A stretch of DNA of 64,000 nt from a virus. Below are positions 56,408 through 62,384 of this stretch, in pieces. The translations under genes were made by a program, and so were the position numbers. Under the pieces are notes generated by a model that had not been told where the DNA came from, did no database searches, and saw nothing but the letters and a program-made list of their open reading frames with translations. How positions within the stretch are numbered: position 1 is the first letter of the stretch; the number at the start of each line of letters is the position of its first letter. Where the stretch lies: positions 1-64,000 of IMG/VR virus record IMGVR_UViG_3300017598_000768; one strand, 5' to 3'.

Positions 56408-57820
56408 CTAAACGAGTGTCACCGTGATCTCTTCCACCAGCGAGGTGTAAGTCACTCCAACCTCTGCTATATAATTATACACCCGTATTGTCAAATCCTT
56501 CGGGCCTCCATCAGCAATATTCATCGCATCTGTGTATGTCCACGTCTCTGCCGTGATCCCAGTCGTCGATCTCACTACAGCAGCATCCATCAAGACGTCA
56601 ACTCTGAACTCACCTTCATACGTACCCGGACTGTCAGTCTCTTCCGGCAGCTGGGAGCCTGCGCCCTGCCCTCTGACTCTTGCATCCCACGTCAATACAA
56701 CATCTTCTCCACCATCATAGATCGGGTACTCCTCAGCCAGCTCGTCATTCGCCCGTAAATTTGCCACTGGATACGGCGCTTTTCCGCGTCCACGGATCGT
56801 TACGCTATCACTGGGAGCTTCTGATATATCCCCAAGCGCAAGCGTCGTGGCAGGAACTGGCTTGAAATATATATCCGATCCTACAAGCATGTTTGCGTCA
56901 CCCTGTGAGAAAGCGGTCGTTCCTATAAACCAGAAATCTTCACCAGCTGCATGTTCTACGATTTCTGTGTCAAACCTCCCTCCCCAGATTCCTATTACAT
57001 GATACCTGCCCGAAACTACTGGATCTGGGGTGATCGTCTGAAAACAAACGATCTCTTCACCAATCAATGCCATGTTATACCCTGCAAATAGGGAATCTCG
57101 TGTTATCGATTCTACGCTGCTCCAATCTGCATTATAACTCGCGTCGAACGTAAATCCCCATTTATCATCAATCCTCGTTCGGTCTGCTCTATATGCAGAA
57201 ACCAGTGTGCCGTGGGGAATGAAGTTATTCACCGCAACTAATGAAGTATACGACGTTCCTCCATCCAACGACATGTATAGGACATATCTTGCCTCCTTAC
57301 CACTAACCCTTGCTGCCAGCGGAGTCACACGGATCACATCGCCAACCAGAACATAAGGCGCTTCTAAAACCTTAAAATTAACTAACGGGTCCACATCCAG
57401 CAGGCTCGCATCAGGTGATGAATGGCTGCTGTACCCACTGCTGTCATATACCGAAACTGCCGTCGTCACGTAATTCGGATCTCTGATGCACGTGATCGTG
57501 AGAAATTCGTCGTCCAACGCTCCTTCATCTATCTCTTGTATTCTCACAACCATGTCAGTTATCCCATACTTCGTTGAAGACCACTTAAAACATTGTCCCG
57601 GATACAAATCAAATGCTTCTCTGTTTACTTTTAATCTCACCTCAAACGCTGGGAAGCACAACGACCTCACAGCTCTGTCAGCCGCCCACAGAGCATTTTC
57701 AGTGTGCGTAAAATACATCAGCTTAATACTCTTGTGGTTGATCTTCCCAAGAAGCTGCAAGTTGGCAATGTCATCGACCTTGATGGTCTCCGCCTGTATG
57801 TCGTAGTATTCATCAGCCAT
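56408..57820 (-). CDS. tail tip / megatron-like protein, C-terminal half
   Basis: Second half of a Phage-tail_3-like domain (F...A...A.R.......LYPG..F....VRI.EI), N.ALIGEEIV.F, G.FDT....HAAG, RG.APYP. Confidence 0.75.
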   Translation of the reverse strand: MADEYYDIQAETIKVDDIANLQLLGKINHKSIKLMYFTHTENALWAADRAVRSLCFPAFEVRLKVNREAFDLYPGQCFKWSSTKYGITDMVVRIQEIDEGALDDEFLTITCIRDPNYVTTAVSVYDSSGYSSHSSPDASLLDVDPLVNFKVLEAPYVLVGDVIRVTPLAARVSGKEARYVLYMSLDGGTSYTSLVAVNNFIPHGTLVSAYRADRTRIDDKWGFTFDASYNADWSSVESITRDSLFAGYNMALIGEEIVCFQTITPDPVVSGRYHVIGIWGGRFDTEIVEHAAGEDFWFIGTTAFSQGDANMLVGSDIYFKPVPATTLALGDISEAPSDSVTIRGRGKAPYPVANLRANDELAEEYPIYDGGEDVVLTWDARVRGQGAGSQLPEETDSPGTYEGEFRVDVLMDAAVVRSTTGITAETWTYTDAMNIADGGPKDLTIRVYNYIAEVGVTYTSLVEEITVTLV

Positions 57821-60119: not shown

Positions 60120-62384
60120 TTATTGCACTTTATAAGTATTGATTGCTGCTGTAGCACCCCTTGCACTCGCATATATAGAACCATCCACATTAACCAATGC
60201 ACAGTATTGTGAGCCTCCCAATGCTCCAGACTCGGTGAAGTTGCACTTCTCAATGAGAGTGATAGTTCCGTCGCTTTCAACTTTTAATGATCGTAAATGA
60301 AAATCTGGCTGCACAGACGGCGGACCGCTGTAACCTACAAGAACCCCATTACCAAGCGCGTTTAAAAATCGCTGATGAACTACATACGTATCTAAGTCTT
60401 CAGAATCCTCAAGCGCAAGTGAGGAACCTCCAGTCACACTTACCGCCTTGAGTTTTCCGCCTGAAGTGTGCAATCCATATCCAACCAAACATCCTGAAAA
60501 CCCATCTATGTCAGTAATGATCTGAGGGGTTGCATAATAATATATTATCGAATCCCCGGCTGAAATATCAAGCGAATCTAACTCTGCCGCGAGAGTATTA
60601 CCAGTACTGAGTAATTTCACCCTCACAACAGAAGGAGAGCCTGTTACATAAGTGATAACACTTACACCCTCTGAAAGTCTTGCTATTGATGGCGCTAAGC
60701 CATCAGCACCAAGCTGATATTGATAGCCTGCACCTCCATTTTGTGTGACCAAACCAATGAGTCCACCAGCAGAAATAGAAAATATCTCAATTCGTGCAGA
60801 TCCAGAAAATCCTTCATAAATAGCTGCATATTCAGACCCTTTAACCCTTGTGAAAGTCTCCATTGAATACCCACTAATTGAACGGCTCGGTCTTGAATAC
60901 TGATCTATATAGCTTTTCGTTATCGTTCCGTCATCGGCGATGGTAAAAGTTACAATTTCTGCGTTACTCCATCCAACACCTTTTAAAACTGCAAATATAT
61001 TAGTACTGCCAAGTACTTTTAGAAACCCACCATTCTGTGCAACGCCTGCGTCCAAATTCCATGAATCTATCAAACTTCCGATATTACCATCAGAATCTAT
61101 ATCGAAAGTCTTCAGCCACATGCTTGCTGAATTACGTCTGTACAGGACTGCAAAAACATCACCGTGAACATTCAATAAACTGTGATCCATCGCAAAAATT
61201 GAATCATGGACCCACGAATCGATGGCACCACAAGCTATTTCTCCGCTAAACGTTGTAAAGTTATGATTAATCTTACTGTAAATCACTTTTAAGTCGTTGA
61301 ATGTGTCTTCCCACGACCCAACATTTAGCACTGGAATTTCCGCAACCATCGCATCATCAATTGATCCCATGGAACCTATATCAACATCGTCTCGCAGAAC
61401 GCCCAGATGCAACTCTCCTTCAATCTCAGACAGGGACGCTCCTACATGAGTCATTATCCCCTCAACATAAGACTCTGCCACCACTTGACGGCTGATGAGC
61501 ATACTGATCCCAACATAGTCCGTCGCTTGAAAATAACCCGCTGCTGCTGTAAACGATGCGGCATTCAAAAATGCTGTCGGAACACCAGAAAGGGTCTCCG
61601 CCAAATACCATATTGCAAATGCTGCGTTGTAGTCTATGTCATTAATCTTCGCCAACGAGTCTGACCCTATCGCTGCTATCGAAGGCCATTTACTCATGAC
61701 AAACTTAACAGACGGGGCTCTGGCATAGTCGCCAATCATAACGTCGTCAAAACAGGCGTAAACCATTCCGCGATAAGCAGAACTGTAATTCGCGTTACTA
61801 AGAGCAGCTGTAGCTTTTGCATTCGGCGCTTGATTACTTGTCCCAAAATAGAACGTCATCGAACCAAGATTCTCGCCAGATTCAGAACCAAGCTGAACCG
61901 TCTCTTCACCATCAGCGTCGTCATCGGTCAGCTCCCCATACCACACAACTTTATCGTCGAACAGGATAGAGTGCAACACTCCCGCTGGGTCTGGCCCATA
62001 CGCAAGAGCATGTACCCACGACAGATAATGCTGGTATCCAACTACTACAGTCTGTGTCTCTTCGCCTCCTCCCCCTTTCGCTCCCGGCACTGACTGCTGT
62101 TCCGTTACCTCCACTACTCGATGGCCCCAGTATTGGATAATATTTCCTGCAACTTTCACAGTTCCTAAAAAGTCAGGCAATGGGTCTCCATACCCAGCCG
62201 TTGAAATATCCATCGACTGCGTCTGTGAAGCACCCGGAGTATCGACAGCATCTGGTGTCGTCGCATCAACCATCGCTCCTACTGCCATTCCAGCAGCAAA
62301 GCCTATCACTGCCCCAGCTGGGCCTCCAATAAAAAACCCAGCGACTCCTCCTACTAAACCTGTTACTATACCTTTTCCGCCCAT
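60120..62384 (-). CDS. tail tip protein N-terminal half, copy A, with variable beta-propeller-like domain
   Basis: Highly similar to copy B over about 375 aa, then divergent. Confidence 0.8.
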   Translation of the reverse strand: MGGKGIVTGLVGGVAGFFIGGPAGAVIGFAAGMAVGAMVDATTPDAVDTPGASQTQSMDISTAGYGDPLPDFLGTVKVAGNIIQYWGHRVVEVTEQQSVPGAKGGGGEETQTVVVGYQHYLSWVHALAYGPDPAGVLHSILFDDKVVWYGELTDDDADGEETVQLGSESGENLGSMTFYFGTSNQAPNAKATAALSNANYSSAYRGMVYACFDDVMIGDYARAPSVKFVMSKWPSIAAIGSDSLAKINDIDYNAAFAIWYLAETLSGVPTAFLNAASFTAAAGYFQATDYVGISMLISRQVVAESYVEGIMTHVGASLSEIEGELHLGVLRDDVDIGSMGSIDDAMVAEIPVLNVGSWEDTFNDLKVIYSKINHNFTTFSGEIACGAIDSWVHDSIFAMDHSLLNVHGDVFAVLYRRNSASMWLKTFDIDSDGNIGSLIDSWNLDAGVAQNGGFLKVLGSTNIFAVLKGVGWSNAEIVTFTIADDGTITKSYIDQYSRPSRSISGYSMETFTRVKGSEYAAIYEGFSGSARIEIFSISAGGLIGLVTQNGGAGYQYQLGADGLAPSIARLSEGVSVITYVTGSPSVVRVKLLSTGNTLAAELDSLDISAGDSIIYYYATPQIITDIDGFSGCLVGYGLHTSGGKLKAVSVTGGSSLALEDSEDLDTYVVHQRFLNALGNGVLVGYSGPPSVQPDFHLRSLKVESDGTITLIEKCNFTESGALGGSQYCALVNVDGSIYASARGATAAINTYKVQ

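What the first reader, a model, noticed from the sequence alone, without database searches (positions are those of the whole stretch)
56408..62384. Tail-tip (megatron/J-like) protein split mid-domain, with two alternative N-halves each carrying a different propeller
Seen: 60120-62384 and 57820-60117 are closely similar for about 375 aa, up to WEDTFNDLKVxYSKINHNF. They then diverge into distantly related beta-repeat domains (TFTIADDGTITKSYID vs TFKINDDGTIAKSIID). The single downstream gene (56408-57820) begins YYDIQAETIKVDD..., which looks like the continuation expected of the same Phage-tail_3 domain. The variable parts look more AT-rich than their flanks. Knowledge: in GTA/BR0599-type tails this protein is normally one polypeptide following the hub and NlpC/P60 genes. 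Inference: a modular tip in which either N-half complements the shared C-half, giving mixed virion populations or hetero-oligomers with two receptor specificities, without an invertase or DGR. The long direct repeat also allows recombinational deletion or swapping.
Basis: partly seen in the sequence, partly recalled or inferred. Interest (0 to 1): 0.72.

Follow-up and report, generated by a model that had tools for sequence, protein, structure and literature searches.

The report
Split phage tail tip, duplicated front half
An uncultured ~100-kb phage encodes its tail-tip "megatron" protein as two diverged front halves, each ending in a different seven-bladed propeller, plus one shared rear half, which probably puts two different host-binding knobs on the tail, although no experiment or complex model shows this yet.

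Summary
Genes 60120-62384 (A) and 57820-60117 (B) are 78% identical over aa 1-375. Each then continues into a predicted 7-bladed beta-propeller; the two propellers are only about 25% identical. Gene 56408-57820 (C) continues the same tail-tip family exactly where A and B stop: PHROG 1101 positions 22-350, then 355-783. In the solved phage Chi tip protein the same join falls at residues 284 and 295.

The split itself is not special to this phage. It is a family-wide fission at the 3' edge of a variable module inserted at one fixed hot spot. It appears in dozens of metagenomic loci. Natural fused forms exist, and so do three-gene forms.

The rare part is the tandem duplication of the front half. 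A and B are sister sequences. Their synonymous sites are saturated, both frames are intact, and the genes are tightly coupled. I found only two other duplications, of different layout, among roughly 80 loci. The scan has noted the same kind of arrangement on other DNA.

The most likely reading is that both front halves dock on the single rear half and give tips with two adhesion specificities. This is inferred, not shown.

The parts
62828..63664 (-). Baseplate hub protein (278 aa)
   Evidence: Pfam Phage_BR0599 (5e-12) and Phage_phiJL001_Gp84_N (9e-11). It is 63% identical to the L001 279-aa ORF.
62385..62861 (-). Tail NlpC/P60 peptidase (158 aa)
   Evidence: Pfam NLPC_P60 at 3.7e-4, below the curated cut-off. 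It is 66% identical to the L001 148-aa ORF in the same position.
60120..62384 (-). Front half A of the tail-tip protein (754 aa): glycine-zipper helices, adhesin-like core, connector and propeller A
   Evidence: PHROG 1101 positions 22-350. The N-domain profile hits RcGTA and R4C megatron, Chi 8vjh_A and JBD30 8rk3_o. AF2 model, pLDDT 67.7.
61260..62384 (-). Conserved N-domain of A (aa 1-375)
   Evidence: 78% aa and 71% nt identity to 58993-60117. Helices at aa 3-38 form a glycine zipper.
61251..61391 (-). Connector of A (aa 332-378, ...SWEDTFNDLKVIYSKINHNF). It is highly conserved but predicted unstructured in the monomer, so it is the presumed docking segment for the rear half.
   Evidence: pLDDT below 50 in both models. 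Columns S357, W358, T361, N363, K366 and Y369 are invariant. It is the part of A and B that is most alike.
60123..61250 (-). Propeller A (aa 379-754), a 7-bladed beta-propeller
   Evidence: VIA Z about 25 to 7-bladed propellers, including Photorhabdus lectins, Sec12 and FoRham1. Foldseek TMt 0.69. Atlas TM 0.86 to a viral propeller cluster. GC 0.42.
57820..60117 (-). Front half B (765 aa). It has the same layout as A, starts 2 nt after A's stop codon and has no Shine-Dalgarno sequence.
   Evidence: PHROG 1101 positions 23-348. AF2 model, pLDDT 64.4. SD duplex energy -0.4 kcal/mol, among the weakest 12% of 59 genes.
57823..58992 (-). Propeller B (aa 376-765), a 7-bladed beta-propeller about 25% identical to propeller A
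   Evidence: GC 0.41.
56408..57820 (-). Single rear half C (470 aa). Its start codon overlaps B's stop codon by 1 nt (TAATG).
   Evidence: PHROG 1101 positions 355-783 (2e-68). Phage-tail_3 positions 95-163 and Rcc01698_C. Its profile matches Chi 8vjh_A residues 295-729 and JBD30 gp53.

Best explanation
This is the tail-tip (megatron / J-like) protein of an uncultured siphophage. It belongs to a large metagenomic lineage in which a variable, lectin-type module sits at one fixed site of the protein, between ...KVxYS(K/E) and IDIxQ.... In most members the gene has been cut immediately after that module. The front half carries four parts: the N-terminal glycine-zipper 'iris/penetration' helices that plug the tail, the adhesin-like domain, a conserved connector, and the module, which here is a 7-bladed propeller. 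The rear half carries the rest of the Phage-tail_3 domain and the Rcc01698_C region. The two halves are presumed to re-associate non-covalently through the connector, giving the usual trimeric tip.

In this phage the front half has been duplicated in tandem within its own lineage. The cores stayed 78% identical and the connector nearly identical. The propellers diverged to about 25% identity, in line with this module's fast turnover across the clade. Both copies are intact and sit in one tightly coupled gene string A-B-C.

I infer that both front halves dock on the single rear half. Virions would then carry tips with propeller A, propeller B or a mixture, which would widen the range of surface glycans or receptors the tip can bind. 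B has no ribosome-binding site and probably depends on re-initiation after A, so it may be the minor form.

Shown: the architecture, the homology, the family-wide split, the sister relationship of A and B, and the purifying selection. Inferred: the re-association of the halves, the incorporation of both copies, and a binding function for the propellers.
For: 1. Collinearity. In PHROG 1101, A covers positions 22-350 and C covers 355-783. In the single-chain Chi tip protein, the N-domain profile ends at 8vjh_A residue 284 and the C-half profile begins at 295.

2. Natural fused forms carry a module at exactly this site. L011 is 1111 aa: N-domain 7-362, Gly_rich_2 at 400-643, then Phage-tail_3 positions 94-162. 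Twenty fused-with-insert and 7 insert-free representatives exist.

3. The split recurs with real stop codons and with varied spacing and frames in dozens of loci. Of the 160 proteins classified (the listed representatives plus earlier hits), 123 are a front half plus extension with no rear half.

4. The modules at this site are of adhesion or carbohydrate-binding type: RCC1, BNR-like, DUF2341, Laminin_G_3, Gly_rich_2 and DUF5000.

5. The module evolves much faster than the core. For P0008 against P0009, identity is 85% in the core and 32% in the module.

6. A and B are sisters, with support 98/99. pN is 0.139 and pS is 0.77, which is saturated.

7. The connector at aa 332-378 is conserved but has low pLDDT in both monomer models.

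8. The N-domain profile hits the RcGTA (6tba) and R4C (8gtc) megatron iris and adhesin-like regions. Their roles are described in PMC7296036. R4C has an inserted carbohydrate-binding domain (PMC10276861).

9. Independent duplications occur in L070 and L071.

10. A and B were each seen on 4 contigs. C was seen on 3 contigs, plus a variant with 2 substitutions on a fourth.

11. On gene coupling and the lack of an SD before B.
Against: There is no direct evidence that either front half binds C, that both are incorporated into virions, or that the propellers bind anything. No complex model could be run. Purifying selection between A and B could have acted before they came to lie in one genome. Among roughly 80 distinct loci only three show any duplication, so a second copy is clearly not required. 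The AF2 models are of middling confidence (pLDDT 64-68). No reads bridging the gene junctions were available.
Confidence: 0.6

Rival explanations
1. Only one front half is used in virions. The other is a redundant leftover of duplication or recombination. It might be poorly expressed, used only under some condition, or on its way to loss.
For: B has essentially no Shine-Dalgarno sequence. Nearly all relatives manage with one front half. Saturated synonymous divergence cannot show that both copies were under selection inside this genome.
Against: Both ORFs are full length with no frameshift. All invariant family residues are kept in both. The connector is almost identical in the two. The stop-2 nt-start arrangement fits translational coupling. 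An old divergence with both frames still intact argues for retention.
Confidence: 0.2
2. A and B are not interchangeable. They might form an obligate mixed tip of unlike subunits, or one copy might sit at a different position in the baseplate, for example docked on the hub or the distal tail protein.
For: In L070 the extra front-half unit lies between the distal tail protein and hub genes rather than beside its twin. An earlier scan note (e1-5993857, unchecked) reports three front halves with one rear half in another roughly 100-kb phage.
Against: The tip is threefold symmetric in RcGTA, R4C and JBD30. Two paralogues give no natural 3-fold arrangement. The two cores and connectors are too alike to suggest different docking sites.
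Confidence: 0.12
3. The tandem arrangement is an assembly chimera of two related phage strains.
For: The record is a metagenomic contig. No read or contig bridging the A/B or B/C junction could be obtained.
Against: At 71% nucleotide identity with no identical run above 15 nt, an assembler has nothing to mis-join on. The junctions are clean gene boundaries. A and B were each seen on 4 contigs, one of which apparently carries a C variant. Other lineages show comparable duplications.
Confidence: 0.05

Closest known systems
RcGTA megatron (Rcc01698, g15; PDB 6TBA/6TEH) and roseophage R4C megatron (PDB 8GTC)
   Same: Same gene position after the hub (BR0599) and NlpC/P60 genes. The N-terminal membrane-active helices and the adhesin-like domain are matched by the N-domain profile: RcGTA residues 10-204 and R4C residues 4-205. 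The rear half carries Rcc01698_C. R4C also carries an extra carbohydrate-binding domain inserted in the peripheral domain.
   Different: Those proteins are single polypeptides of 1304-1447 aa with central and fibre-binding domains. Here the protein is cut in two, the front half is present twice, and the rear half ends at PHROG 1101 position 783 of 1405 with no detected fibre-binding part.
Phage Chi tail-tip minor tail protein (PDB 8VJH) and JBD30 baseplate hub gp53 (PDB 8RK3)
   Same: These are the best sequence and fold matches for both halves. Chi residues 2-284 match the front-half core and 295-729 match the rear half.
   Different: Both are one chain, without an inserted module at this site and without the first roughly 100 residues (the glycine zipper). 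JBD30 shows a different evolutionary fission: hub plus upper baseplate protein, where T5 has the single protein pb3 (PMC11445458).
'Evolved' Dit/Tal baseplate proteins with inserted carbohydrate-binding modules (Gram-positive siphophages)
   Same: A conserved baseplate scaffold carries a swappable sugar-binding-type module in a loop. This comparison rests on my own knowledge and on an earlier scan note, and was not tested here.
   Different: The scaffold family is different. Those modules are in-frame insertions, with no gene fission and no sharing of a partner half.
Phages with two receptor-binding options: dual tailspikes of SP6/K1-5, invertible fibre cassettes of Mu/P1, the DGR of BPP-1
   Same: The functional analogy is one genome with two adsorption specificities. 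This rests on my own knowledge.
   Different: There is no invertase, no inverted repeats, and no reverse transcriptase or template repeat. The variation sits in the plug-forming tip core itself, not in side fibres or spikes. Both versions are encoded constitutively in series.

Membership tests
Megatron / J-like tail-tip protein (RcGTA g15 type; PHROG 1101; Pfam Phage-tail_3 + Rcc01698_C) | Gene lies directly after the baseplate hub (BR0599) and NlpC/P60 peptidase genes | tested here: met
   hub at 62828-63664 and NlpC/P60 at 62385-62861, immediately upstream of A.
Megatron / J-like tail-tip protein (RcGTA g15 type; PHROG 1101; Pfam Phage-tail_3 + Rcc01698_C) | N-terminal iris/penetration helix followed by the adhesin-like domain | tested here: met
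   Glycine-zipper helices at aa 3-38. The N-domain profile matches RcGTA 6tba residues 10-204 (1e-14) and R4C 8gtc residues 4-205 (9e-15).
Megatron / J-like tail-tip protein (RcGTA g15 type; PHROG 1101; Pfam Phage-tail_3 + Rcc01698_C) | Phage-tail_3 and Rcc01698_C domains | tested here: met
   C matches Rcc01698_C at 1.6e-8, above the cut-off. Phage-tail_3 matches only its last 69 positions, below the cut-off. The first part lies in A and B by PHROG collinearity.
Megatron / J-like tail-tip protein (RcGTA g15 type; PHROG 1101; Pfam Phage-tail_3 + Rcc01698_C) | One polypeptide | tested here: not met
   Stop codons separate A, B and C. Relatives show the same split.
Megatron / J-like tail-tip protein (RcGTA g15 type; PHROG 1101; Pfam Phage-tail_3 + Rcc01698_C) | Central and fibre-binding C-terminal domains (RcGTA residues 745-1304) | tested here: inconclusive
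   C ends at PHROG 1101 position 783 of 1405. The C-half profile gave no RcGTA or R4C hit at E<=0.01. Relatives have C-terminal extensions of 90-740 aa that the window lacks.
Megatron / J-like tail-tip protein (RcGTA g15 type; PHROG 1101; Pfam Phage-tail_3 + Rcc01698_C) | Forms the trimeric tip with the hub protein | not testable with these tools
   No multimer prediction or particle data were available.
Seven-bladed beta-propeller adhesion/lectin module | Seven four-stranded blades closed into a ring | tested here: met
   A has 29 strands in aa 389-753. VIA Z about 25, rmsd 3.2 A over about 316 residues. B matches propellers by Foldseek at TMt 0.5-0.58. Both have Atlas TM 0.84-0.86 to the same viral propeller cluster. 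These are predicted models of middling confidence.
Seven-bladed beta-propeller adhesion/lectin module | Sugar- or receptor-binding site | not tested
   There is no Pfam match and no conserved site could be identified. Lectins are only some of many tied fold matches.
Invertase-switched tail-fibre cassettes (Mu Gin / P1 Cin type) | Site-specific invertase and flanking inverted repeats | tested here: not met
   No Resolvase (PF00239) in the 99.8-kb record. No significant inverted repeats around the genes. The record is 86% complete.
Diversity-generating retroelement | Reverse transcriptase and a near-identical template/variable repeat pair | tested here: not met
   No RVT_1 (PF00078) in the record. 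No near-identical repeats in 55500-64000.

The most novel reading that the evidence does not exclude
The plug-forming core of a phage tail tip is a non-covalent two-piece assembly. Two paralogous front halves compete for, or co-assemble on, one rear half. A single infection would then release a mixture of tips (A3, A2B, AB2, B3) with different propellers, which amounts to built-in combinatorial bet-hedging of adsorption at the level of the tip core. The family-wide connector would act as a natural 'plug and socket' for swapping host-binding modules.
Probability: 0.4. Interest if true: 0.75.

Novelty: new variant of a known kind. Interest (0 to 1): 0.55.

Why it matters
Host range in siphophages is usually ascribed to fibres, spikes or the C-terminus of the central fibre. 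Here the variable module sits on the protein that plugs and opens the tail, and it is attached through a gene fission that recurs across hundreds of uncultured phage lineages. If the conserved connector really lets different front halves dock on one rear half, two things follow. It would explain how these phages exchange or multiply adhesion modules without disturbing tail assembly. It would also offer a natural, testable scaffold for mounting new binding domains on a tail tip. The family (619 clusters at E<=1e-30) has no Pfam model for its N-domain and is barely represented among cultured phages.

Tried and rejected

2. Read support. Only Logan contigs of three runs were offered. X1 (marine sediment) holds four short pieces inside gene B at 100% identity, and nothing bridges a junction. 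This gives no evidence for or against misassembly, and none about habitat.

3. Cultured-phage relatives. tblastn found only matches of 26% identity or less: Xanthomonas, Pseudomonas and Erythrobacter phages for C, and the FtMidnight 'tail megatron' for A.

4. Pfam on the propellers of A and B gave nothing. The Atlas feature search gave no usable hit.

5. The search for the P0010 (RCC1) locus in viral contigs found nothing.

6. Recoding (frameshift or read-through) that would join the halves was considered and rejected. The spacing and relative frame of the two genes differ from locus to locus: 1-nt overlap, 2-nt gap, 8-nt gap, and longer gaps holding extra ORFs.

7. Invertase or DGR switching was rejected.

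8. The sigma-70 promoter and terminator scan was at background level.

9. The primary paper on the Chi tail tip is not in the library, so the structural domain at Chi residues 284-295 could not be named.

10. No complex of a front half with the rear half could be predicted.
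Full report
**What is there**

The window is bases 1-64000 of a 99.8-kb IMG/VR virus record, estimated 86% complete. All the genes concerned lie on the minus strand, in this order:
- a LamG-containing protein, cut by the window edge;
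- the baseplate hub, 62828-63664 (Phage_BR0599 plus the Gp84 N-terminal domain);
- an NlpC/P60 peptidase, 62385-62861;
- gene A, 60120-62384 (754 aa);
- gene B, 57820-60117 (765 aa);
- gene C, 56408-57820 (470 aa).

B starts 2 nt after A's stop codon. C's ATG overlaps B's TAA by one base.

**Checking the observation**

A and B align without gaps over aa 1-375. Identity is 78% at amino-acid level and 71% at nucleotide level. After ...SWEDTFNDLKVxYSKINHNF identity falls to about 25%.

PHROG 1101 is a 1405-position tail-protein family. It matches A residues 45-372 at profile positions 22-350, B residues 47-370 at positions 23-348, and C residues 9-450 at positions 355-783. C therefore continues the profile where A and B leave it. 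Pfam Phage-tail_3 matches only its last 69 positions, at the very start of C, and Rcc01698_C follows.

A profile of the N-domain ends at residue 284 of the single-chain tail-tip protein of phage Chi (8vjh_A). A profile of the rear half begins at residue 295 of the same chain. The same N-domain profile also hits the RcGTA megatron (6tba/6teh, residues 10-204) and the R4C megatron (8gtc, residues 4-205). Those stretches are the iris/penetration helix and the adhesin-like domain as defined in PMC7296036 and PMC10276861.

The variable parts are AT-richer than the rest. Their GC is 0.42 and 0.41, against 0.47-0.49 elsewhere in these genes, and their GC3 is 0.31 and 0.38.

**The propellers**

The AF2 models of A and B have pLDDT 67.7 and 64.4. 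Both show the same layout:
- two N-terminal helices at aa 3-38, a glycine zipper that scores for Pfam glycine-zipper families in 8 (YMGG type) and 6 (Omp type) of 25 family members;
- a beta-rich core followed by an alpha/beta part, up to about aa 330;
- a stretch at aa 332-378 with pLDDT below 50 and almost no secondary structure, although it holds the most conserved residues of the family;
- an all-beta domain to the C-terminus.

Foldseek ranks the JBD30 baseplate hub and the Chi tail tip first, and 7-bladed propellers next. For A, VIA-align gives Z about 25 (rmsd about 3.2 Å over about 316 residues) to many 7-bladed propellers. These include Photorhabdus lectins, a rhamnose-glucuronate lyase, Sec12 and coronin, with nothing to choose between them.

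In the ESM Atlas both propellers have the same nearest neighbours, at TM 0.84-0.86: a mostly viral cluster of about 374 aa, and 'lactonase, 7-bladed'. The two propellers are thus diverged homologues of one fold, not unrelated modules.

**The split is a family trait**

Relatives were fetched from IMG/VR, JGI metagenomes and GTDB genomes, 109 locus entries in all including duplicates. HMMs of the N-domain and of the rear half were run over their ORFs. Dozens of distinct loci show the same order: a front-half ORF of 511-1010 aa, a real stop codon, then a separate rear-half ORF of 460-1208 aa. The spacing and relative frame of the two genes vary, which rules out recoding.

Other states of the same site also occur:
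- fused proteins with a module at exactly this point, for example L011 (1111 aa): N-domain 7-362, Gly_rich_2 at 400-643, then Phage-tail_3 positions 94-162;
- fused proteins with no module, such as L021, L091 and L100;
- three-gene forms in which the module is its own ORF, such as L097 (an RCC1 propeller), L038 (DUF2341), L065 and L068;
- L072, with two module-sized ORFs of about 350 aa between the N-domain and the rear half.

The N-domain profile was also searched against 1.84 billion representative proteins. It found 619 clusters at E<=1e-30. I classified 160 proteins: the 150 listed representatives plus earlier hits. The result was 123 front half plus extension (70-759 aa, median 351) with no rear half, 20 fused with an insert of 174-490 aa, 7 fused without an insert, and 10 N-domain only. 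Some metagenomic proteins may be truncated, so these counts are approximate.

Within the window's own clade the module changes far faster than the core. P0008 and P0009 are 85% identical in the core and 32% in the module. P0007 and P0008 are 91% and 54%. This pattern, and the kinds of module found at the site (RCC1, BNR-like, LamG/DUF2341, Gly_rich_2, DUF5000), are what one expects of an exposed adhesion or receptor-binding position. R4C's inserted carbohydrate-binding domain in the peripheral part of its megatron is the published precedent.

**The duplication**

In a maximum-likelihood tree of 28 N-domains, A and B are sisters. Support is 98/99 and the branch lengths are 0.13 and 0.15. This points to a duplication within this lineage, or acquisition from a very close unsampled relative.

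Synonymous sites are saturated (pS 0.77) while pN is 0.139. All invariant family residues are present in both copies. The connector is the part of A and B that is most alike. The longest identical nucleotide run is 15 nt, so the repeat is neither a plausible substrate for homologous recombination nor something an assembler would mis-join.

A and B were each recorded on four contigs. C was recorded on three, plus a variant with 2 substitutions on a fourth contig of 11,958 bp.

Only two other loci have two N-domains:
- L070 has two units, each an N-domain (88% identical) plus a BNR-like propeller ORF (66% identical). One unit lies between the distal tail protein and hub genes; the other is at the usual place.
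- L071 has a complete unsplit, insert-free tip gene followed by a second, split copy that carries DUF5000 and Gly_rich_2 modules.

Earlier notes of this scan report the same kind of arrangement on other DNA: two or three front halves with one rear half. I did not check those notes.

**How it probably works**

The following rests on homology with RcGTA and R4C and is inferred. The front half supplies the helices that close the tail channel and later insert into the outer membrane, together with the adhesin-like domain. The rear half supplies the rest of the tip core.

The conserved connector is unstructured on its own. It lies exactly where the chain is continuous in Chi and in the fused relatives. 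It is therefore the best candidate for the segment that completes the Phage-tail_3 fold together with the start of C. A and B have nearly the same connector and there is only one C, so both should be able to dock.

The expected outcome is tips bearing propeller A, propeller B or a mixture, and hence two adhesion specificities. B has no Shine-Dalgarno sequence: duplex energy is -0.4 kcal/mol, against a median of -6.8 for 59 genes. Its ATG lies 2 nt after A's stop codon. It is probably translated by re-initiation and may be the less abundant form.

The window's C is of the short type. It lacks the roughly 245-aa C-terminal extension of its closest relatives L001 and L002. The propellers may therefore be the main adhesion modules of this tip core.

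No invertase, reverse transcriptase, inverted repeats or near-identical repeats are present. Nothing suggests regulated switching.

**What is not shown**

None of the following was tested: association of A or B with C, presence of both in particles, stoichiometry, or any ligand. The rival readings are that one copy is unused, that the tip is an obligate mixture, and that the arrangement is an assembly chimera. I rate them at about 0.2, 0.12 and 0.05.

**Verdict**

The split is a widespread feature of an uncultured branch of the megatron/J-like family, and no paper in the library searches describes it. The tandem front halves sharing one rear half are a rare variant of it. I class this as a new variant of a known kind, of moderate to good interest.

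Noticed in passing
window 56222-56398 (-): A 58-aa ORF with a strong Shine-Dalgarno sequence (TAGGAGG, overlapping C's stop codon) lies directly after the rear half. It has no annotation. The next ORF, at about 55813-56211, is 67% identical to the 126-aa ORF that follows the rear half in L001.
   Followed up: partly
window 56208-56235 and 62445-62472: The palindrome-containing motif TTGCAAGCGCTTGCAA occurs twice, as a 28-nt inverted pair at 79% complementarity. One copy lies in the gap after the 58-aa ORF and the other inside the NlpC/P60 gene.
   Followed up: no
window 56408-57820 vs L001:5970-8117, L012:7781-10831, L015:3800-7426: The window's rear half is the minimal 470-aa form. Close relatives carry C-terminal extensions of 90-740 aa, and L001/L002 have a following ~1000-aa ORF; the L001 copy has no counterpart in the window.
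   Followed up: partly
L071:6974-14012: One viral contig carries a complete, unsplit, insert-free tip gene (833 aa). It is followed by a second, split copy: a 544-aa front half with a DUF5000-like insert before the connector, and a 965-aa rear half that starts with a Gly_rich_2 module. This makes two whole alternative tip proteins in tandem.
   Followed up: partly
L070:1193-6528: There are two N-domain ORFs (88% identical), each followed in another frame by a BNR/Asp-box propeller ORF (66% identical). One pair lies between the distal-tail and hub genes. The first N-domain lacks about the last 80 residues of the domain.
   Followed up: partly
L097:8570-9862, L038:1659-2684, L072:5542-7645: Three-gene versions of the tip were found in which the module is a free-standing ORF between the N-domain gene and the rear half: an RCC1 propeller in L097, DUF2341 in L038, and two module-sized ORFs of about 350 aa (one LamG-like) in L072. 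How a free module would attach is unexplained.
   Followed up: no
window 62265-62384 and 59998-60117 (aa 1-40 of A and B): The invariant glycine-zipper N-terminus (G12, G16, G24, G28, G32, G36) gives weak, non-significant profile matches (E about 0.3) to influenza HA2 fusion-peptide regions and to OmpA/SlyB glycine zippers. This fits a membrane-active segment but is not evidence of homology.
   Followed up: no
L108 (MAG labelled Candidatus Methanoperedens) 6902-10261: A fused 1119-aa family member sits on a contig binned to an archaeal MAG. This may be a binning artefact or a phage or prophage contig, and was not examined.
   Followed up: no
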